A stretch of DNA of 64,000 nt from the sequence record MN850584.1; one strand, written 5' to 3'. The notes under the pieces are model-generated. The model ran no database searches, was not told the origin of the DNA, and worked only from the letters and a program-made list of their open reading frames with translations. This document shows, piece after piece, positions 43,601 to 50,101 of the stretch (its first letter is position 1; each line of letters begins with the position of its first letter). Source of the DNA: Escherichia phage arall. The translations under genes were made by a program, and so were the position numbers.

Positions 43601-44494
43601 ATGAAAGTTAGTATTCTACATGGTGTTGACTGTTATGTTACTGATGTAGACGTTAAAGTCTTTACATTCTCTGGTGGAGAACAACATGTTCAACTAGATA
43701 CGAATCTATCAGGTTTCAATCATGCTACAGACAGAATCTTACTCTCTTTAGAAGTAAGATCTGCTAAAGACTTGATGACTTTGGTTATGACTAAGAATGC
43801 ATTGGACAATATGCTATATCATAAACCATATTGTGTTGATTTGCTCATGTTGTATGTGCCATATGCACGACAAGACAGAGTGTGTGAACCTGGGGAAGCA
43901 TTCGGAGTTAAAGCATTTGCTTCTATAATTAATTCATTAAATTTCTCACGTGTTATCGTTGCTGATCCACATAGTGATGTTACTCCAGCGGTGTTTGACA
44001 GACTCTGTGTAATACCTCAAGAAGAGATTGCTTACGAAACTTTAAAGTGGAAGTTACGTATGGAGAATTTTGCTCTTGTTAGTCCTGATGGTGGTGCTCT
44101 TAAGAAAATATTTAAATTATCTAAGAAAATGTCTTTAGATGTGTTCTGTGCAGAGAAGGTTAGAGATACTGCAACAGGTGCTATTGTTCGTACAGACATT
44201 TCTGTACAGGATTTCAATAAGCGTAACCTGATGATCGTAGATGATATCTGTGACGGCGGTAGAACTTTTATTGAATTGGCTAAAGTGCTACGTGCTCGTA
44301 ACGCAGGTAAGATTGAGTTATATGTTACACACGGTATCTTTTCTAAAGGTCTTAAAGAGTTAAGTGAGCACTTTGACTGCATTCATTCTCTTAATGTGTG
44401 GGAAGATAACATCCAAGAAGATTCCGGTGTTCTTGTTAAGAATCAGTCAGATTTGCAACAACAAATTGTATCTCCATACGTGTGGAATTTTTAA
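43601..44494 (+). CDS. PRPP-synthetase-like phosphoribosyl pyrophosphokinase (candidate ADP-ribose pyrophosphokinase, Adps-like)
   Basis: 297 aa; VPYARQDR, VSPDGGALKK, IVDDICDGGRT motifs; RBS AAGGAGA. Confidence 0.8.
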   Translation: MKVSILHGVDCYVTDVDVKVFTFSGGEQHVQLDTNLSGFNHATDRILLSLEVRSAKDLMTLVMTKNALDNMLYHKPYCVDLLMLYVPYARQDRVCEPGEAFGVKAFASIINSLNFSRVIVADPHSDVTPAVFDRLCVIPQEEIAYETLKWKLRMENFALVSPDGGALKKIFKLSKKMSLDVFCAEKVRDTATGAIVRTDISVQDFNKRNLMIVDDICDGGRTFIELAKVLRARNAGKIELYVTHGIFSKGLKELSEHFDCIHSLNVWEDNIQEDSGVLVKNQSDLQQQIVSPYVWNF

Positions 44495-44504
44495 ATAATA
44501 AGTG

Positions 44505-44533
44505 TTGACAATAGGGAGTATGCTTAGTAAGAT
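44505..44533 (+). promoter_or_regulatory. sigma70-like promoter (TTGACA-N17-TAAGAT)
   Basis: consensus -35 with 17-nt spacer. Confidence 0.45.
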
Positions 44534-44565
44534 ACTCCCACACTAACAAACAAGGAGACATAACT

Positions 44566-46299
44566 ATGAATATTTTTGCACCTTTTGCTACTGATTGGTA
44601 TAAACCTGGTCACAAGCAGATGTACAACCAAAATACAAAACTCATTTTCTCTAATTTAACTCCTCGTAATGATAAAAACTTTGCACACTATGCAGATCGT
44701 GAAGCACGTGGTGTAATTGTTTTAGGTATTCGTCGAGCAGTTACTGATGCTCTTGTAACTATGTGGGATAGCTTCTTTAAAATGTCTCGTAGTGCAGCAG
44801 TAAATAAGTTTTATCGTATGTCTAAAAATGCATTAGGTGCTTCTTCTCCTTCTGCTGAATGTTGGGGAGAATTGCACGATTTAGGTTATCTTCCGCTGGA
44901 AGTTCGATCTCTGCCAGAAGGTGTTTTGTGTCCTATTGGTGTTCCTGTGTTTACTGTGCATAATACTTTAGAAAAATTCTTTTGGTTAACTAACTATGTG
45001 GAAACACTATTGTCAGATGAAACTTGGAAGACAATGACTAATGCTACAGCAGCTTTTCAGTATAAGCGTATTGCTATGGCATATGCGATGGCAACGTGTG
45101 ATAATATTGATCACGTTAACTTCCAGTGTCATGATTTTAGCCTACGTGGTTTAAGTAATATTGAAGATGGTTATAAGAGTGGTATCGCTCATTTGGCATC
45201 GTTCACAGGCACAGATAATATTCTGGCTATTGAAACTGTGCATGATTATTATGGTATTGATTATGATCAGTTTGTTGCAGGTTCTATTCCGGCAACAGAA
45301 CATTCAGTAGCAACGACTAACATTGGAGCTATTGTTGAAGATCTGAAGAAACATTTCCCACATCTTAAAGATGATGTTGATGGGCTTCGTTATGTAGCAG
45401 AGAAAGAGTTTCTTCGCCGCTATATTGAAGAAATTGTTCCAGAAGGTTTTTGTTCATATGTAGCAGATTCTTATGATTACTGGGCTGTCTTGACTCGCAT
45501 TCTGGTAGAATTGAAAGAGTCCATTATGTCACGAAATGGTCGTCTTGTTATTCGTCCAGATTCAGGAGATCCGGTTAAAGTTGTTGCAGGATACAATGTT
45601 GAATCTTTTGCTAACTATGAAGACCTTTTAAATAATGGTATTGCTACAGCCACTGAAGTAGTTCATTTGGCTGATGTTAATAAGTATTACAATGTTCTTC
45701 AGGATTGCAGTGTTGCTGATTGTATTGATGAAACTTATGAGATTCCTTATTGTGAAGCAGTAGGTTCTATTCAAATCCTTTGGGAAGTGTTTGGTGGTAC
45801 TATCAACCGAAAAGGCTACAAGGTTCTTGATCAGCACATCGGTATGATTTATGGTGATTCTATTACTGTTGAACGAGAACACGAGATCTTACGCCGACTG
45901 AAGAAGAAAGGTTTTGCAGCTTCCAATATTGTATTTGGTGTTGGTAGTTATACTTATCAGTTCAATACACGAGATACTTTTGGTTTTGCTGTTAAAGCAA
46001 CAGGTAGTATCATCGGTGAACACGAAATTTTGGTAAGTAAGGAGCCTAAAACTGATCCTGGTAAACGCTCTGCAAAAGGTTTTATTAAGGTTGTTAAGGA
46101 TACAAATGGTAAACTTTCTCTTGTGGATAATCTTTCTTTTAAAGATATTCAAGATGAAGACAATGAGTTAAAAGTTATCTTCAGGGATGGTACGGTTATT
46201 ACACCACAAGTAGAAGGACGTGATGAAACATTTACTGATATCCGCAACCGTGTTGATGTAGAGGTTCTTCGTACTATGGGAACCATCCAGGTTGACTAA
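44566..46299 (+). CDS. nicotinamide phosphoribosyltransferase-like (NadV/NAMPT family; candidate Namat)
   Basis: 577 aa; N-terminal FATDWYKPGHKQMY and overall NAMPT-like organisation; RBS AAGGAGA. Confidence 0.8.
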   Translation: MNIFAPFATDWYKPGHKQMYNQNTKLIFSNLTPRNDKNFAHYADREARGVIVLGIRRAVTDALVTMWDSFFKMSRSAAVNKFYRMSKNALGASSPSAECWGELHDLGYLPLEVRSLPEGVLCPIGVPVFTVHNTLEKFFWLTNYVETLLSDETWKTMTNATAAFQYKRIAMAYAMATCDNIDHVNFQCHDFSLRGLSNIEDGYKSGIAHLASFTGTDNILAIETVHDYYGIDYDQFVAGSIPATEHSVATTNIGAIVEDLKKHFPHLKDDVDGLRYVAEKEFLRRYIEEIVPEGFCSYVADSYDYWAVLTRILVELKESIMSRNGRLVIRPDSGDPVKVVAGYNVESFANYEDLLNNGIATATEVVHLADVNKYYNVLQDCSVADCIDETYEIPYCEAVGSIQILWEVFGGTINRKGYKVLDQHIGMIYGDSITVEREHEILRRLKKKGFAASNIVFGVGSYTYQFNTRDTFGFAVKATGSIIGEHEILVSKEPKTDPGKRSAKGFIKVVKDTNGKLSLVDNLSFKDIQDEDNELKVIFRDGTVITPQVEGRDETFTDIRNRVDVEVLRTMGTIQVD

Positions 46300-46605: not shown

Positions 46606-46716
46606 ATGTCTACAGAAATTATTTTTGGCTTATCTGTTTTTATTGCTATTGTATCTTTTGTATGCGGTTATACATTAGGGTACAGATCAAGAAAAAATAT
46701 TGTAAAAACTAGTTGA
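46606..46716 (+). CDS. small membrane protein (36 aa)
   Basis: RBS AAGGAAACAG; hydrophobic IIFGLSVFIAIVSFVCGY; below track cut-off. Confidence 0.3.
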   Translation: MSTEIIFGLSVFIAIVSFVCGYTLGYRSRKNIVKTS

Positions 46717-46742
46717 CAACATAGCTAGTTATTTGCTAAGAT
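46713..46742 (+). promoter_or_regulatory. sigma70-like promoter (TTGACA-N18-TAAGAT)
   Basis: hexamers upstream of gene at 46772. Confidence 0.4.
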
Positions 46743-47045: not shown

Positions 47046-47121
47046 GGTTCCATAGCTCACTGACGAGAGCGCACACCTCATAAGTGTCGAGGGCAGGGAT
47101 TGTAACCCTGGGGAACCACCA
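47046..47121 (+). tRNA. tRNA-Met/Ile2 (anticodon CAT), non-canonical T-loop ATTGTAA
   Basis: hand-folded cloverleaf: acceptor GGTTCCA/GGGAACC (one A.G), D-arm GCTC-ACTGACGA-GAGC, anticodon loop CTCATAA, T-stem CAGGG/CCCTG, CCA encoded. Confidence 0.55.
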
Positions 47122-47152
47122 TTTAAAAGGAGGTGCTATGCATCTCCTATAT

Positions 47153-47238
47153 GCAAGTGTGGTGGAATTGGTGATACACATTGTGCTTAAAACGCAACGC
47201 TTAAATGCTTGAGGGTTCGAATCCCTCCACTTGCACCA
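47153..47238 (+). tRNA. tRNA-Leu (anticodon TAA)
   Basis: acceptor GCAAGTG/CACTTGC, anticodon loop CTTAAAA, long variable arm, T-loop TTCGAAT, CCA encoded. Confidence 0.75.
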
Positions 47239-47240
47239 AC

Positions 47241-47346
47241 GCCTAGTAGGGTATTTGGTAATTCCGAGGCCATCAAAGCCTGAAAAATATGTTAGACCGC
47301 TTTGTCTAACTAAATACGAAATATGGTTCGATTCCATAACTAGGCT
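47241..47346 (+). other. atypical over-long tRNA-like gene (106 nt)
   Basis: perfect 7-bp acceptor GCCTAGT/ACTAGGC and canonical T-arm TATGG-TTCGATT-CCATA, but about 30 nt too much between them, including a 7-bp hairpin GTTAGAC-CGCTTT-GTCTAAC. Confidence 0.35.
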
Positions 47347-47379
47347 TCAATTTAAATAGTAATTTTAGTAAAAAATATC

Positions 47380-47408
47380 TTGACATTTACTTAGTTTTTT
47401 GTTATAGT
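47380..47408 (+). promoter_or_regulatory. sigma70 consensus promoter (TTGACA-N17-TATAGT)
   Basis: near-consensus hexamers ending 12 nt upstream of tRNA-like gene at 47420. Confidence 0.55.
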
Positions 47409-47419
47409 CGTTATGAAAA

Positions 47420-47501
47420 CGGGGTGTATCTCACCTGACTTCTAATCAGGCGTTAACCGAGTAATTGGAGTATGCAGGTTCGAATCCTGTCACCCCGGCC
47501 A
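47420..47501 (+). other. atypical tRNA-like gene with anticodon hairpin TCT (Arg-type) and no recognisable D-arm
   Basis: perfect acceptor CGGGGTG/CACCCCG + CCA, T-arm GCAGG-TTCGAAT-CCTGT, anticodon arm CCTGA-CTTCTAA-TCAGG; only 7 nt (TATCTCA) where D-arm should be; 23-nt variable region with GNRA-capped stem. Confidence 0.4.
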
Positions 47502-47519
47502 AAAAGTTTTAAAAACTAC

Positions 47520-47549
47520 TTGACAAGCAAGATAGTTTTATGTTAGATT
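47520..47549 (+). promoter_or_regulatory. sigma70-like promoter (TTGACA-N17/18-TTAGAT)
   Basis: hexamers upstream of tRNA-Ser. Confidence 0.4.
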
Positions 47550-47564
47550 TAAAGTATGATAACT

Positions 47565-47654
47565 GGAAGGTAGGGCGCAGCGGTGCGCAACCAGGTTTGA
47601 ACCCTGGCCCATTGTAGCGATACGGTGATGGTTCGACTCCATTATCTTCCTCCA
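47565..47654 (+). tRNA. tRNA-Ser (anticodon TGA)
   Basis: acceptor GGAAGGT/ATCTTCC, anticodon arm CCAGG-TTTGAAC-CCTGG, long variable arm, T-loop TTCGACT, CCA. Confidence 0.7.
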
Positions 47655-47660
47655 AATTCA

Positions 47661-47825
47661 ATGAGTGATTTTATGAATTATAAAACTATTGGACAGGTTG
47701 TTACCGGAGTTAAGATTGTAAATAATAAAGTTGTTTATGAGTATTCTAATCTTCAACAATCTGAAGATGGTAAGAATATTCGTATGGTAAAAGCAGAACA
47801 AAAAGATTCCGGTTGTTTTGAATAA
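47661..47825 (+). CDS. small hypothetical protein inside tRNA cluster
   Basis: ORF track 47625..47825 trimmed to first ATG after tRNA-Ser 3' end; no clear RBS. Confidence 0.3.
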   Translation: MSDFMNYKTIGQVVTGVKIVNNKVVYEYSNLQQSEDGKNIRMVKAEQKDSGCFE

Positions 47826-47833
47826 TTAAGAAC

Positions 47834-47919
47834 GGTAGATTGGTGAAATGGTAGCCACAACAGTTTGCTAAACTGTCGTCGGAAACGGCGTGTAGGTTCA
47901 AGTCCTACATCTACCGCCA
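47834..47919 (+). tRNA. tRNA-Ser (anticodon GCT)
   Basis: acceptor GGTAGAT/ATCTACC, anticodon loop TTGCTAA, long variable arm, T-loop TTCAAGT, CCA. Confidence 0.7.
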
Positions 47920-48054
47920 AGTTATCTTTAATGTAGCTTGTAATCTTACTTTAGCAGAGTAAATCTTCGGCAAGTGGCGGTAACCACTTTACCGATACCC
48001 CAATACTTCATAGCTAAGTGCCGCAAACACTGGCTATTTTAAAGATAATTTTAT

Positions 48055-48129
48055 ACATCGTTAGCCAAGCGGTAAGGCACTTGACTTTTAATCAAGGGAG
48101 CGAAGGTTCGAATCCTTCACGATGTACCA
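48055..48129 (+). tRNA. tRNA-Lys (anticodon TTT)
   Basis: acceptor ACATCGT/ACGATGT, D-arm GCC-AAGCGGTAA-GGC, anticodon loop CTTTTAA, T-loop TTCGAAT, CCA. Confidence 0.75.
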
Positions 48130-48134
48130 AACAC

Positions 48135-48221
48135 GTAGGTATCGCATAGCGGCAATTGCTGGAGACTGTAAATCTCCTGCCCTTCTGGGCTTCGTTGGTT
48201 CGAGTCCAACTACCTGCACCA
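48135..48221 (+). tRNA. tRNA-Tyr (anticodon GTA)
   Basis: acceptor GTAGGTA/TACCTGC (U2.G71), anticodon arm GGAGA-CTGTAAA-TCTCC, long variable arm, T-loop TTCGAGT, CCA. Confidence 0.7.
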
Positions 48222-48228
48222 AATTAAA

Positions 48229-48313
48229 GATGGATTGGCCTAGTGGTTGGGCGACGGACTGTTAATCCGTGAACGAAAGTTCTAGCAAGGTTCAAATCCT
48301 TGATCCATCGCCA
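48229..48313 (+). tRNA. class-II (long variable arm) tRNA with anticodon GTT (Asn codons) in a Ser/Tyr-like body
   Basis: acceptor GATGGAT/ATCCATC, 3-bp D-stem GCC/GGC, anticodon arm ACGGA-CTGTTAA-TCCGT, 15-nt variable arm GAACGAAAGTTCTAG, T-loop TTCAAAT, CCA. Confidence 0.5.
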
Positions 48314-48320
48314 GAATTAT

Positions 48321-48397
48321 GGACTTGTAGAGTTAAGGTAAAACCCCAGTCGCCAAGAGGCTTCTGGAATTGCAGGTATCGAATCCTGTCGAGTCCA
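48321..48397 (+). pseudogene. degenerate tRNA-like element (possible tRNA pseudogene)
   Basis: acceptor-like GGACTTG/CGAGTCC and T-arm-like GCAGG-TATCGAAT-CCTGT (8-nt loop); no D-arm or anticodon arm found. Confidence 0.3.
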
Positions 48398-48403
48398 AGT
48401 ATT

Positions 48404-48478
48404 GCTCCTATCGTATAACGGCTATTACGGTTGCCTTGTAAGCAACTTATCAGGGTTCGAGTCCTTGTGGGAGCACCA
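48404..48478 (+). tRNA. tRNA-Thr (anticodon TGT)
   Basis: acceptor GCTCCTA/TGGGAGC, anticodon arm GTTGC-CTTGTAA-GCAAC, T-loop TTCGAGT, CCA. Confidence 0.75.
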
Positions 48479-48495
48479 ATTTTAACTCTAAAGGA

Positions 48496-48825
48496 GTGTA
48501 TGTGACAGAAAAAGAGTTAGAGAAATATTTTAATATCAATGTTTTCGATGGTTTTGATGATATTGAAGATGTTGAAAGATATTATGAAGTAGAGTTAGAT
48601 AAGGATAACATTGTAATTCTTTCTGCCACTTATGATTGTGCATATTATGAAGGTGAATCTCACGTTTATTTTTATGATATGAAAACATCTTTGTTTTATG
48701 AAGTACACGCATATCATTGTTCTTGTTATGGTTTAGAAGGTCAGTGGGAACCTGAAGAAATAGGTGATTTGGATTTTACTATTGCATATCTAAACAGACG
48801 TGGTGCATCTACTATTTTAAAATAA
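48496..48825 (+). CDS. hypothetical acidic protein inside tRNA cluster
   Basis: 109 aa; GTG start at RBS AAGGAG (alternative GTG 48502). Confidence 0.5.
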   Translation: MYVTEKELEKYFNINVFDGFDDIEDVERYYEVELDKDNIVILSATYDCAYYEGESHVYFYDMKTSLFYEVHAYHCSCYGLEGQWEPEEIGDLDFTIAYLNRRGASTILK

Positions 48826-48839
48826 ATATCAAAAGCCTC

Positions 48840-48869
48840 TTGACAAAGTGGCTAATAATATGTTAGAGT
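48840..48869 (+). promoter_or_regulatory. sigma70-like promoter (TTGACA-N18-TAGAGT)
   Basis: hexamers upstream of tRNA-Gly. Confidence 0.4.
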
Positions 48870-48880
48870 AATATTGTTAA

Positions 48881-48955
48881 GCGGGTATAGTGTTAATTGT
48901 AGCATATGAGGTTTCCACCCTCCAGGTGCAGGTTCAAGTCCTGTTACTCGCTCCA
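48881..48955 (+). tRNA. tRNA-Gly (anticodon TCC)
   Basis: acceptor GCGGGTA/TACTCGC, anticodon loop TTTCCAC, T-loop TTCAAGT, CCA. Confidence 0.65.
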
Positions 48956-49302
48956 AGATTATTTAAATGGAATCGCTAGAGAAAATTTCTCTTTTCGCTC
49001 ATGGTTTTCTCCTTCAAACTCTAGCGGTTCTTTTTAAGTGATTTTTAGTTTATTGGAGATTCACTGCCTTAGTATGAGCTAAAATCGAGGAGCCATCGAA
49101 CTGTCTGATTAATGATTTGCGAATCATTATAGTTTTAAGACCCCGGCAGTTTTATGGTGTACCTCTTGAATGTGAATGATGACGGGTTTATGGTTATCCT
49201 GGTCGTTAAATATCCAAAAACCTATGTTCCCCTTGATGGCTTGCGCAGGCAATGCCAATAAGTCCTGCATTTTCATTTAAAAGAGAATTTATAATGGAAA
49301 AA

Positions 49303-49380
49303 GATGAACTTAAGTATGCTAAGCCTCTGGCTTCTGCTGCACGAAAAGCAGTTCGTCACTTTGTGGTAACACTGAAGTAA
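49303..49380 (+). CDS. very small ORF (25 aa) in structured noncoding stretch
   Basis: ATG 9 nt after AAGAGAA; MEKDELKYAKPLASAARKAVRHFVVTLK; speculative. Confidence 0.2.
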   Translation, partial: DELKYAKPLASAARKAVRHFVVTLK

Positions 49381-49385
49381 TTTAT

Positions 49386-49460
49386 TGGAGATTAGCCTAG
49401 TGGGAAGGCAACGGCCTTTGAAGTCGTGATGACTAGGTTCGATTCCTAGATCTCCAGCCA
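49386..49460 (+). tRNA. tRNA-Gln (anticodon TTG)
   Basis: acceptor TGGAGAT/ATCTCCA (U1-A72), anticodon arm ACGGC-CTTTGAA-GTCGT, T-loop TTCGATT, CCA. Confidence 0.75.
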
Positions 49461-49467
49461 AGATTTA

Positions 49468-49543
49468 CAGTGCGTAGCGCAGTTGGTAGCGTGGGAGCTT
49501 TGGATGCTTCGGGTCGCAGGTTCGAGTCCTGCCGCACTGACCA
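49468..49543 (+). tRNA. tRNA-Pro (anticodon TGG)
   Basis: acceptor CAGTGCG/CGCACTG (C1-G72), anticodon loop TTTGGAT, T-loop TTCGAGT, CCA. Confidence 0.75.
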
Positions 49544-49548
49544 AATTT

Positions 49549-49623
49549 GCAGAGATAGCTGAGACGGATTAGTGCTACCCTGAAAAGGTAGAAAGGATGG
49601 ATCGTTACCATCTCTCTGCACCA
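49549..49623 (+). tRNA. tRNA-Phe (anticodon GAA), non-canonical T-loop ATCGTTA
   Basis: acceptor GCAGAGA/TCTCTGC, anticodon arm CTACC-CTGAAAA-GGTAG, T-stem GATGG/CCATC, CCA. Confidence 0.6.
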
Positions 49624-49700
49624 AATAACACCATCCAAGGAGTAGACTTGGTTAACTGTCAATAGCACATTGAGGCTTCTTACAGTGGTGTACTTATTAT

Positions 49701-49785
49701 GGCTAAGTGGTGGAATGGTATACACGATACGCTTAGAACGTATTGCCCCAAGGGATTGTGAGTTCGAGTCTCACCTTAGCTACCA
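49701..49785 (+). tRNA. tRNA-Leu (anticodon TAG)
   Basis: acceptor GGCTAAG/CTTAGCT, anticodon arm ATACG-CTTAGAA-CGTAT, long variable arm, T-loop TTCGAGT, CCA. Confidence 0.7.
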
Positions 49786-49800
49786 AATTATTACAGATTG

Positions 49801-49879
49801 TGCGGGATAGAGGAGTCTGGTCGTCCTCGCCAGTTTCATATGCTGGAGATCATCGGTTCAAATCCGATTCCCGCCTCCA
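49801..49879 (+). tRNA. tRNA-Met/Ile2 (anticodon CAT)
   Basis: acceptor TGCGGGA/TCCCGCC (1-72 mismatch), D-arm GAGG/CCTC, anticodon arm CCAGT-TTCATAT-GCTGG, T-loop TTCAAAT, CCA. Confidence 0.6.
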
Positions 49880-49956
49880 ATAAATACCTCCCTTCTGGTG
49901 TAATGATTAAATTGCATTGACACTTCAAGGAACTCATAGCCGGGTAGATTTAAAAG

Positions 49957-50020
49957 AGTATGGTACTCAATATGGCTCCAAACCATAGATCAAGGGGTTC
50001 GATTCCTCACCTTGCTGCCA
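49957..50020 (+). other. short (64 nt) tRNA-like gene with anticodon hairpin CCA (Trp-type), no D-arm
   Basis: anticodon arm TATGG-CTCCAAA-CCATA, T-arm AGGGG-TTCGATT-CCTCA, 3' CCTTGCT-G-CCA pairs with AGTATGG (6/7); only 7 nt (TACTCAA) in D-arm position. Confidence 0.35.
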
Positions 50021-50025
50021 ATTAT

Positions 50026-50101
50026 TGTGGTATCGTACAGATGGTTAGTACACTCGACCGATAATCGAGAAACAACGGTTCGACTCCGTTTACCACGACC
50101 A
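50026..50101 (+). tRNA. tRNA-Ile (anticodon GAT)
   Basis: acceptor TGTGGTA/TACCACG, D-arm GTAC/GTAC, anticodon arm CTCGA-CCGATAA-TCGAG (C33), T-loop TTCGACT, CCA. Confidence 0.65.

What the first reader, a model, noticed from the sequence alone, without database searches (positions are those of the whole stretch)
47241..47346. Over-long (106 nt) tRNA-like gene and a degenerate tRNA-like remnant (48321..48397)
At 47241, starting 3 nt after the CCA of tRNA-Leu, a perfect 7-bp acceptor pair and canonical T-arm enclose about 30 extra nucleotides including a 7-bp hairpin and an anticodon-like loop CATCAAA; it could be a tRNA with an insertion, a fused pseudogene, or a distinct small RNA. At 48321 an acceptor-like pair and a T-arm-like hairpin with an 8-nt loop enclose sequence with no anticodon arm.
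Basis: seen in the sequence. Interest (0 to 1): 0.45.

Follow-up and report, generated by a model that had tools for sequence, protein, structure and literature searches.

The report
Conserved phage tRNA-shaped RNAs without working anticodons
The over-long "tRNA" is a real gene for a tRNA-shaped RNA with a crippled anticodon arm and a huge extra arm, conserved in many enterobacterial phages and in no RNA family library; its role is unknown, and I guess a tRNA mimic.

Summary
Both observations are correct as described. The window is a phi92-like Justusliebigvirus, and both elements lie in its tRNA operon.

**Element A (47241-47349, + strand)** belongs to a discrete RNA family.
- It occurs in Vequintavirinae (five genera), in Justusliebigvirus and in one N4-like phage.
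- Across 17 distinct sequences a cloverleaf is kept: 99.4% of cells pair, and 9 pairs show compensatory changes.
- The extra-arm hairpin and the D-loop/T-loop contact (G19-C56 to U19-A56) also covary.
- A family model scores members at 95-119 bits and ordinary tRNAs at 27 bits or less.
- The anticodon arm is not canonical: 4 Watson-Crick pairs plus a G.G, and loop CAUCAAA with A33.
- The loop differs in size and sequence between clades.
- The variable region is 39 nt with conserved single-stranded flanks.
- The encoded 3' tail reads UCA here, not CCA.
- GenBank labels family members tRNA-sup(tca), tRNA-???(atcc), tRNA-Stop(tta), tRNA-Lys or tRNA-OTHER, overlays them with a hypothetical protein, or leaves them unannotated.
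- phi92 itself lost A through a 125-bp microhomology deletion, so A is dispensable.

**Element B (48321-48397)** is a tRNA body whose anticodon loop is replaced by a capped helix. Two alleles about 65% identical keep their stems through compensatory changes, so it is not a decaying remnant.

**Function** is inferred only. My best guess is non-decoding tRNA mimics with a counter-defence role. An opal suppressor role for A is less likely.

The parts
46713..46742 (+). Promoter-like site (TTGACA-18-TAAGAT). It is the likely start of the unit small ORF / tRNA-Met / tRNA-Leu / element A.
   Evidence: 10 of 12 consensus positions. The next strong + strand site (47380-47408, 11 of 12) lies just after element A.
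47153..47238 (+). tRNA-Leu(UAA). It ends in CCA two bases before element A and is the inferred co-transcribed neighbour.
   Evidence: Other family members also start 2-5 nt after an upstream tRNA.
47241..47349 (+). Element A: the whole tRNA-shaped RNA gene. It is 106 nt to the discriminator U47346, followed by the tail UCA.
   Evidence: Family model R1 scores it 98 bits. Cloverleaf covariation is shown.
47241..47247 (+). Acceptor stem, 5' strand. It pairs with 47339-47345.
   Evidence: 7 of 7 pairs are kept in all 17 sequences, and 3 pairs show compensatory changes.
47250..47265 (+). D arm GGTA-TTTGGTAA-TTCC. The stem can extend to 6 bp with a 4-nt loop, as in tRNA-Sec.
   Evidence: 3 of 4 stem pairs covary. 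The second G of the loop covaries with the T-loop C (G-C to U-A in 5 sequences).
47266..47282 (+). Anticodon-like arm: G, AGGC, loop CAUCAAA (47271-47277), GCCU, G.
   Evidence: The 4 pairs are always kept and 2 covary. The flanking G and G are invariant. Loop size and sequence differ between clades.
47283..47321 (+). Enlarged 39-nt variable region: A-rich 5' flank (47283-47290), 7-bp hairpin (47291-47310), and a 3' flank carrying the family-invariant AAUAC (47311-47321).
   Evidence: A hairpin is present in every member with different sequences. It covaries in the Seunavirus/Mydovirus subset. Flank conservation is shown.
47322..47338 (+). T arm TATGG-TTCGATT-CCATA, with a canonical T loop.
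   Evidence: G.U pairs in this stem in 9 homologues fix the + strand as the RNA strand.
47339..47349 (+). Acceptor 3' strand, discriminator U47346, and tail UCA in place of CCA.
   Evidence: The tail is UCCA in Seunavirus, Mydovirus, Henunavirus and UTK0002. It is UCCC in a second Justusliebigvirus variant, ACCU or ACAU in rV5-like phages, and UACA or CACA in Avunavirus.
47244..47368 (.). The 125-bp segment absent from phage phi92. The deletion lies between two TAGTA microhomologies.
48321..48397 (+). Element B: a tRNA-shaped RNA with no anticodon.
   Evidence: Rfam tRNA scores it 27.8 bits against a 29-bit cut-off. MFE fold z = -3.9. Model R2 scores it 115 bits.
48346..48367 (+). Element B central helix (CCAG..GCC-AAGA-GGC..CUGG), standing where an anticodon arm would be.
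   Evidence: The phi92-type allele has a different, also fully paired hairpin here.
48372..48396 (+). Element B T arm (8-nt loop TATCGAAT) and acceptor 3' strand.
   Evidence: Compensatory changes between the two alleles are shown.

Best explanation
Element A is a genuine gene for a tRNA-shaped, non-coding RNA of about 106 nt.

**Shown**
- It belongs to a discrete family that has been part of the tRNA operon of rV5-like and phi92-like phages since before those subfamilies split, and it has also moved into an N4-like phage.
- The family keeps a 7-bp acceptor stem, a D arm, a canonical T arm, the D-loop/T-loop elbow contact, a short anticodon-like arm, and a large variable region made of a hairpin between two conserved single-stranded motifs.

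**Inferred, maturation**
- It is transcribed with tRNA-Met and tRNA-Leu.
- It is cut out by RNase P and the host 3' trimming enzymes, as tRNAs are.
- It folds into an L shape.

**Inferred, function (least certain)**
- It does not decode.
- Its anticodon arm is one layer short.
- Its loop carries A33, and in other clades the loop has 6 or 8 nt.
- The 3' CCA and the discriminator are not kept in several clades.
- I therefore think it acts as a tRNA mimic that occupies a tRNA-recognising protein.
- The most plausible target is a host tRNA-cutting defence enzyme or toxin. The clade-specific loop and the conserved variable-region motifs would be the contact surfaces.

**Element B** is a second such mimic, with the anticodon loop replaced outright by a capped helix.
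For: **Real and conserved**
- Homologues exist in Justusliebigvirus (30 records), Henunavirus, Seunavirus, Mydovirus, Avunavirus, Vequintavirus and one member of Schitoviridae.
- On 17 distinct sequences 99.4% of cells pair, against 29-49% when partners are slid. Nine pairs change on both sides.
- RNAalifold finds the same fold independently.
- The variable-arm helix covaries.
- The tertiary G19-C56 pair becomes U19-A56 in 5 sequences.
- The three substitutions inside the Justusliebigvirus copies are A-U to G.U, C-G to U.G, and one in a hairpin loop.

**Discrete family**
- Model R1 scores members at 95-119 bits and every ordinary tRNA at 27 bits or less.

**Not a standard decoder**
- ARAGORN does not call it, and Rfam tRNA gives no hit.
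- The loops are CAUCAAA, CCAUCCAG, CCCUCAAG, CCAGCCAG, UUUUUAA or UUUAUAA by clade. The 3' tails vary too.
- The window holds no long ORF interrupted by TGA.

**Accessory, in a region that behaves like a counter-defence region**
- phi92 lost A cleanly.
- tRNA-Lys and element B are swapped as cassettes among otherwise about 100% identical genomes.
- NAD-salvage genes (Prs-like and NAMPT-like) lie just upstream.
- Published proposal: phage tRNAs are selected to resist host anticodon nucleases (PMC10264068).

**Element B**
- The alleles keep their stems by compensation, and both cap the anticodon position with a closed helix.
Against: - There are no expression, processing or binding data of any kind.
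- Enzymes turn over, so a decoy must bind tightly or be very abundant. Neither is shown.
- The rV5-like and Avunavirus copies have loops that look like working anticodon loops (U33, A37). The rV5 copy combines UUU with discriminator A73, as a lysine tRNA would, and passes the Rfam tRNA cut-off at 35.5 bits.
- Most clades keep U73-CCA and invariant G1-C72 and C2-G71, which hints at aminoacylation.
- The G19-C56 to U19-A56 switch and several compensatory changes may each be a single event inherited by a clade.
- phi92 is viable without A, so any benefit is conditional.
Confidence: 0.4

Rival explanations
1. Element A is a working but unorthodox elongator tRNA. In this phage it would be an opal (UGA) suppressor or UGA reader, as annotated in Erwinia phage Hena1. 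It would be charged by a synthetase that ignores the anticodon, or by GlyRS or CysRS through U73.
For: - The loop CAUCAAA differs from the tRNA-Sec loop CUUCAAA only at position 33, and tRNA-Sec is the best Rfam model (29.4 bits here, 39 bits for Hena1).
- Hena1 and pEp_SNUABM_01 annotate it as tRNA-sup(tca).
- U73-CCA and G1-C72/C2-G71 are kept in most clades.
- The rV5 and Avunavirus loops are canonical.
- Sec-like tRNAs with varied anticodons are known as allo-tRNAs (PMC5389517 abstract).
Against: - A33 replaces the near-universal U33.
- The anticodon stem is 4 pairs plus G.G with no residue 26, so the arm is one layer short.
- Seunavirus and Mydovirus copies have 6- or 8-nt loops.
- The window copy encodes UCA, not CCA.
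- No TGA-interrupted long ORF exists in 64 kb, and 9 of 57 long ORFs end in TGA.
- phi92 is nearly identical in the flanks yet lacks A.
- Ordinary Ser, Tyr and Leu tRNAs score as well against the tRNA-Sec model.
Confidence: 0.2
2. Elements A and B act only in cis. They are folded tRNA-like modules that guide RNase P and RNase E processing, or insulate the folding of neighbouring tRNAs in the polycistronic transcript. The released RNAs have no role of their own.
For: - Both sit tightly between tRNAs.
- The best-conserved parts are those RNase P reads: the acceptor and T arms and the elbow.
- 3' tails are free to vary.
Against: - Neighbouring tRNAs carry their own processing signals, and phi92 processes tRNA-Leu without A.
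- This role does not explain the invariant single-stranded motifs of the variable region or the clade-specific conserved loops.
Confidence: 0.12
3. Element A is a tRNA-scaffolded base-pairing small RNA. The stable tRNA body protects it, and the conserved unpaired stretches of the variable region (A-rich 5' flank, AAUAC 3' flank) or the loop pair with a host or phage mRNA.
For: - The flanks of the variable hairpin are conserved in sequence rather than by pairing, and are predicted unpaired in all members.
Against: - The invariant core is only about 5-9 nt.
- The window copy differs from the others in the 3' flank (ACGAAAUAU against ACAUAG).
- No target was identified.
Confidence: 0.1
4. A and B are tRNA pseudogenes drifting towards loss. 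The apparent conservation reflects only recent common ancestry.
For: - The window copy has a U.U mismatch in the D stem and a mutated CCA.
- phi92 deleted A.
- Some Phapecoctavirus copies of B carry single pair-breaking changes.
Against: - A is kept across two phage subfamilies, where flanking spacers are not alignable. It shows 9 compensated pairs and 99.4% pairing.
- The B alleles differ at a third of positions yet keep three helices.
Confidence: 0.05

Closest known systems
Class II (long-arm) tRNAs and bacterial tRNA-Sec (Rfam RF00005, RF01852)
   Same: - 7-bp acceptor stem, 5-bp T stem and canonical T loop.
- GG in the D loop paired to the T loop.
- An extra arm between the anticodon and T arms.
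- A possible 6-bp D stem with a 4-nt loop.
- A UCAAA loop core resembling tRNA-Sec.
   Different: - The acceptor/T helix is 7/5, not 8/5.
- The discriminator is U73, not G73.
- A33 stands in place of U33.
- The anticodon stem has 4 pairs plus G.G.
- The variable region is 39 nt, with 8 and 11 unpaired nt around its hairpin.
- Scores lie below both Rfam cut-offs.
allo-tRNAs (Sec-like tRNAs with 8/4 or 9/3 acceptor/T branches and varied anticodons; PMC5389517)
   Same: Both are tRNA-Sec-like RNAs found in bacteria and phages. Their anticodons vary between relatives, and they were proposed to be suppressors or regulatory RNAs (abstract shown).
   Different: - The family here has a normal 7/5 branch.
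- Most of its loops are not 7-nt anticodon loops.
- Its variable region is far larger.
Phage T4 stable RNAs species 1 and 2 (rnaC, rnaD)
   Same: - They are over-long stable RNA genes of unknown function.
- They sit at the end of a phage tRNA cluster directly next to a tRNA.
- rnaC ends in a tRNA-like T arm.
   Different: There is no homology. Model R1 scores rnaC at 8 bits, below T4's own tRNAs. Their overall architecture is different.
Phage tRNAs that evade or replenish against host anticodon nucleases (PMC10264068)
   Same: - They occupy the same genomic niche.
- They show anticodon-arm changes relative to host tRNAs.
- They show accessory, cassette-like turnover.
   Different: Those are working tRNAs that still decode. 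Elements A and B appear unable to decode, and B has no anticodon at all.

Membership tests
Canonical elongator tRNA (RF00005) | 7-bp acceptor stem, 5-bp T stem and a 7-nt T loop UUCRANY | tested here: met
Canonical elongator tRNA (RF00005) | D loop G18 G19 contacting the T loop (G19-C56) | tested here: met
   GG is present. The G-C pair switches to U-A together in 5 homologues.
Canonical elongator tRNA (RF00005) | 5-bp anticodon stem and a 7-nt loop with U33 and purine 37 | tested here: not met
   The stem has 4 Watson-Crick pairs plus G.G. The loop is CAUCAAA with A33. Other clades have 6- or 8-nt loops.
Canonical elongator tRNA (RF00005) | Variable region of 4-5 nt (class I) or about 10-24 nt (class II) | tested here: not met
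   It is 39 nt here and 31-40 nt across the family. The size ranges quoted are from general knowledge.
Canonical elongator tRNA (RF00005) | Called by ARAGORN, or reaches the Rfam gathering score of 29 bits | tested here: not met
   ARAGORN makes no call. Rfam gives no tRNA hit. Only the rV5-like homologue passes, at 35.5 bits.
Canonical elongator tRNA (RF00005) | 3' CCA end and aminoacylation | not testable with these tools
   The encoded tail here is UCA, and it is CCA in four other clades. Charging needs an experiment.
Bacterial tRNA-Sec (RF01852) | Anticodon UCA | tested here: met
   The loop is C-A-UCA-A-A, but only in the Justusliebigvirus, Henunavirus and UTK0002 clade.
Bacterial tRNA-Sec (RF01852) | 13-bp acceptor/T helix (8/5) | tested here: not met
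   It is 7/5. An eighth acceptor pair would be A.A.
Bacterial tRNA-Sec (RF01852) | 6-bp D stem with a 4-nt loop | tested here: inconclusive
   U14-A21 and U15-A20 could pair, and RNAalifold and the Rfam alignment draw them paired. Both pairs are invariant, so there is no covariation either way.
Bacterial tRNA-Sec (RF01852) | Rfam gathering score of 47 bits | tested here: not met
   The score is 29.4 bits here and 39 bits for Hena1. Ordinary Ser and Tyr tRNAs score 28-40 bits.
Suppressor tRNA (as annotated in Hena1) | Genes that need read-through of the matching stop codon | tested here: not met
   The 64-kb window has no TGA flanked by at least 100 and at least 60 open codons. phi92 lacks the element.
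tmRNA | tRNA-like domain plus a tag reading frame | tested here: not met
   ARAGORN finds no tmRNA, and Rfam gives no hit.
tRNA with a group I intron | Intron of 200 nt or more in the anticodon loop, matching an intron model | tested here: not met
   The extra sequence is about 30 nt and lies in the variable region. There is no intron hit in Rfam.
T4 species 1/2 stable RNAs | Sequence and structure homology to rnaC or rnaD | tested here: not met
   Model R1 scores 8 bits on rnaC and gives no hit on rnaD.

The most novel reading that the evidence does not exclude
Elements A and B are the first examples of phage-encoded 'anticodon-disabled' tRNA mimics. They would be abundant, RNase P-processed RNAs that keep the tRNA body but cannot be cut or used. 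They would act as competitive inhibitors of host tRNA-targeting immune nucleases or toxins. Their loops and extra-arm motifs would evolve clade by clade in an arms race.
Probability: 0.22. Interest if true: 0.8.

Novelty: new variant of a known kind. Interest (0 to 1): 0.55.

Why it matters
- Phage tRNA clusters are now read as counter-defence loci. A conserved tRNA-shaped RNA that probably cannot decode would add an RNA-mimic layer to that picture.
- The family sits in well-used coliphage, Salmonella and Klebsiella phage groups (rV5, PVP-SE1 and phi92 relatives, including therapy candidates). Natural plus and minus variants exist for testing.
- The family is annotated in public records in at least five contradictory ways or not at all. 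A covariance model would fix that.
- It also warns against reading 'tRNA-sup(tca)' in these genomes as evidence of stop-codon recoding.

Tried and rejected
- **Rfam.** Searched at gathering score and at permissive thresholds. No family fits. The only hits are sub-threshold, to tRNA-Sec for A and tRNA for B.
- **tmRNA and group I intron.** Rejected.
- **Origin from a neighbouring tRNA.** The halves of A were compared with 60 tRNAs from these clusters. No paralogue stood out.
- **Bacterial origin.** Pattern scans of the GTDB genomes gave only chance hits. The metagenome scan found one more Justusliebigvirus contig and otherwise chance hits. BLAST of the rV5-type copy against 5,426 E. coli genomes found nothing.
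- **IMG/VR scans.** Five patterns added only copies of isolate-type sequences and chance hits in ordinary tRNAs or coding DNA.
- **T4 rnaC and rnaD.** Not homologous.
- **Programmed UGA read-through.** None found.
- **Protein-coding reading.** Some records annotate a 'hypothetical protein' over the element. This is rejected because family lengths are 100, 108, 109 and 110 nt and changes are pair-compensating.
- **Terminator-like hit.** The variable hairpin scores as a terminator on the minus strand. This comes from the A-run next to the hairpin, and the hairpins of other clades are too weak.
- **Literature.** Seven searches found no description of this family.
- **Selection within Justusliebigvirus.** Purifying selection could not be measured, because the flanks are themselves about 100% identical.

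Full report
**Where we are**

The window is 99.9% identical over the tested 1.5 kb to Escherichia phage AV123, a phi92-like Justusliebigvirus of the Stephanstirmvirinae.

Positions 47046-50101 form a + strand tRNA cluster. ARAGORN tRNAs there. Rfam, one of which ARAGORN misses.

The T-loop motif GGTTCRANTCC occurs 15 times in the window. All are in this cluster on the + strand, against 0.15 expected by chance. Three of those 15 lie in elements ARAGORN does not call, and element A is one of them.

**The observation**

Element A layout:
- It starts two bases after the CCA of tRNA-Leu.
- Acceptor 47241-47247 pairs with 47339-47345 (7 perfect pairs).
- D arm 47250-47265.
- Anticodon-like arm 47266-47282, with loop CAUCAAA.
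- 39-nt variable region 47283-47321, including a 7-bp hairpin.
- T arm 47322-47338.
- Discriminator U47346, then UCA where tRNAs have CCA.

The single-sequence fold gives this cloverleaf (z = -2.5).

Standard tools do not recognise A:
- ARAGORN makes no call.
- Rfam gives nothing at gathering score.
- In a narrow search the only hit is to tRNA-Sec at 29.4 bits, against a cut-off of 47.

**Element A is a member of a conserved family**

BLAST with A finds 30 Justusliebigvirus records at 98-100% identity. It also finds about 71% matches in Erwinia phage Hena1 and in Salmonella phage UTK0002, an N4-like Schitoviridae phage.

Using those as queries brings in more groups:
- Seunavirus: PVP-SE1, SSE121, EspYZU15, 4MG, LNA4, NINP13076.
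- Mydovirus: Ro1, DP, KB57.
- Avunavirus: Av-05, 18-1-2.
- rV5-like Vequintavirus.

Members are always inside a tRNA cluster and always a few bases after another tRNA.

The neighbourhood (tRNA-Leu(UAA), A, and an odd tRNA(UCU)) is shared between Mydovirus and this window. A is therefore an old component of the cluster, not a recent accident.

Public annotation of the family is inconsistent:
- tRNA-TERM / tRNA-sup(tca)
- tRNA-???(atcc)
- tRNA-Stop(tta)
- tRNA-Lys
- tRNA-OTHER
- 'hypothetical protein'
- no annotation at all

**Structure evidence**

On 17 distinct sequences the four core helices form standard pairs in 99.4% of cells. With partners slid by 1-3 columns the figure is 29-49%. Nine of 20 pairs show changes on both sides. 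RNAalifold recovers the same fold unaided.

Further points:
- G.U pairs in the T stem of nine members fix the + strand as the RNA strand.
- The variable-region hairpin exists in every member with unrelated sequences. It covaries in the Seunavirus/Mydovirus subset, where 4 of 6 pairs change on both sides.
- The second G of the D loop and the C of the T loop change together to U and A in Ro1, DP, KB57, 4MG and LNA4. This is the tRNA elbow pair G19-C56, so the L shape is kept. It may be one inherited event.
- The three substitutions seen inside the Justusliebigvirus copies are A-U to G.U, C-G to U.G, and one in a hairpin loop.

A covariance model of the family scores members at 95-119 bits and every ordinary tRNA in about 370 kb of phage tRNA regions at 27 bits or less. 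The family is discrete.

**What is not tRNA-like**

The anticodon-like stem has four Watson-Crick pairs bracketed by an invariant G and G, with no separate residue 26. The arm is therefore one stacking layer shorter than in a working tRNA. That is my reading of the alignment.

The loop is clade-specific:

| Clade | Loop |
|---|---|
| This window, Hena1, UTK0002 | CAUCAAA |
| Most Seunavirus and Mydovirus | CCAUCCAG (8 nt, or 6 nt if C-G closes) |
| NINP13076 | CCCUCAAG |
| 4MG | CCAGCCAG |
| rV5-like | UUUUUAA |
| Avunavirus | UUUAUAA |

Only the last two look like real anticodon loops.

The variable region is 31-40 nt. It has conserved unpaired flanks: AAAAUA on the 5' side and an invariant AAUAC on the 3' side.

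The 3' tail also varies:

| Clade | 3' tail |
|---|---|
| Four clades | UCCA |
| This window | UUCA |
| A sister Justusliebigvirus variant | UCCC |
| rV5-like | ACCU or ACAU |
| The two Avunavirus copies | UACA and CACA |

**Dispensability and turnover**

phi92 lacks exactly 125 bp (window 47244-47368), between two TAGTA repeats. A was therefore lost by microhomology deletion from a viable phage.

Among five other Justusliebigvirus genomes nearly all features of the 1.7-kb region are 97-100% identical to the window. The exceptions are three cassettes:
- tRNA-Lys, 77% identical. The other allele has an aberrant anticodon stem.
- A 135-nt spacer.
- Element B.

Just upstream lie a Prs-like and a NAMPT-like gene. 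From my own knowledge this resembles a phage NAD-restoring counter-defence pair.

**Element B**

Rfam aligns B to tRNA at 27.8 bits (cut-off 29). Acceptor, D and T arms are in place, but the model's anticodon loop and inner stem are replaced by 14 nt that form GCC-AAGA-GGC. The fold has z = -3.9.

B exists as two alleles:
- The window carries the Phapecoctavirus-type allele. It is 94% identical to phAPEC8, although the flanking tRNA-Asn and tRNA-Thr are only about 75% identical to those of phAPEC8.
- phi92, muut, ALITA and ESCO9 carry a 79-nt allele that is 62-67% identical, between flanking tRNAs that are 99-100% identical.

Between the alleles, four pairs in the acceptor, T and central helices changed on both sides. 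The phi92 allele also closes the anticodon position with a fully paired hairpin.

A few Phapecoctavirus copies carry single pair-breaking changes.

Model R2 finds B only in Stephanstirmvirinae.

**Interpretation**

That A and B are genes for folded, tRNA-shaped RNAs on the + strand is well supported. I put this at about 0.9 for A and about 0.7 for B.

Co-transcription with neighbouring tRNAs and maturation by RNase P and 3' trimming are inferred from position and from the conserved acceptor/T/elbow module. Promoter-like sites are at 46713 and 47380.

Function is not shown by anything here. I favour a non-decoding tRNA mimic for these reasons:
- The anticodon arm is structurally off, and in B the anticodon is absent.
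- Loops and 3' tails are free to differ between clades while the body is fixed.
- The elements are accessory and swapped as cassettes.
- The published view is that phage tRNA clusters are shaped by host tRNA nucleases (PMC10264068).

The main rival is an unorthodox decoder, an opal suppressor in this phage. Points for it are the Sec-like loop core, U73-CCA in most clades, and canonical loops in rV5 and Avunavirus. Points against it are A33, the odd loop sizes, the absence of any TGA-interrupted ORF in the window, and the viability of phi92 without A.

**Comparison with known things**

- The family is not in Rfam 15.
- It is not homologous to T4 rnaC or rnaD, the classic unexplained stable RNAs of a phage tRNA cluster.
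- It differs from allo-tRNAs in having a normal 7/5 branch.
- It was not found in bacterial genomes. Apart from one more Justusliebigvirus contig, it was not found in metagenomes, and it was not found in E. coli genomes.
- Seven literature searches found no description of it.

I rate it a new variant of a known kind: a tRNA-derived structured RNA.

Noticed in passing
window 47420-47498 (+): This is a tRNA(UCU) with no D arm: 7 unpaired nt stand in its place. It has a long variable arm capped by a GUAA tetraloop, a canonical anticodon loop CUUCUAA and an encoded CCA, and it has its own strong promoter at 47380-47408. Rfam scores it 38.6 bits but ARAGORN misses it. It is 100% conserved in phi92 and 87% identical in Mydovirus phages KB57 and DP.
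   Followed up: partly
window 49939-50019 (+): This is a fourth uncalled tRNA-like element, between tRNA-Met and tRNA-Ile. It has the anticodon loop CUCCAAA (Trp, CCA), a canonical T loop, about 8 extra nt before a short D hairpin, and an imperfect acceptor stem. It is also present in phi92, whose annotation skips tRNA number t016 at this spot. The fold is not better than shuffles (z = 0.14), so it may be a pseudogene.
   Followed up: partly
window 48055-48129 (+): tRNA-Lys(UUU) is a swapped cassette. It is only 77% identical to the copy in five other Justusliebigvirus genomes whose flanks are 98-100% identical. The other allele has a mispaired anticodon stem, and ARAGORN reads it as a 6-nt loop ('tt').
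   Followed up: partly
window 43601-46299 (+): Two adjacent genes carry a phosphoribosyltransferase / PRPP-synthetase-like domain and a NAMPT-like (NAPRTase family) domain. They sit directly upstream of the tRNA cluster. From my own knowledge they resemble a phage NAD-restoring counter-defence pair.
   Followed up: no
window 47920-48054 (+): This 135-nt spacer between tRNA-Ser(GCU) and tRNA-Lys is variable between close relatives (81-93% identity). It holds a 6-bp hairpin, AAGTGG-CGGTAA-CCACTT, that is also present in the phAPEC8 spacer. It could be another small structured element.
   Followed up: no
window 47291-47310 (- strand reading): The variable-arm hairpin of element A, followed by the complement of its A-run, scores as an intrinsic terminator on the minus strand. 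No leftward genes are evident nearby, and other clades have weaker hairpins, so this is probably incidental.
   Followed up: partly
L001 (phi92) 658-808: The phi92 record annotates a 151-nt 'hypothetical tRNA' inside the NAMPT-like gene. It also labels tRNA-Met as another 'hypothetical tRNA'. The first is most likely an annotation artefact.
   Followed up: no
L033 2748-2780 (IMG/VR contig 3300009091_000593): An AT-rich viral contig carries a normal-length tRNA-like sequence with the same unusual loop, CAUCAAA, on a 5-bp stem. ARAGORN does not call it. It is unrelated in sequence to element A.
   Followed up: no
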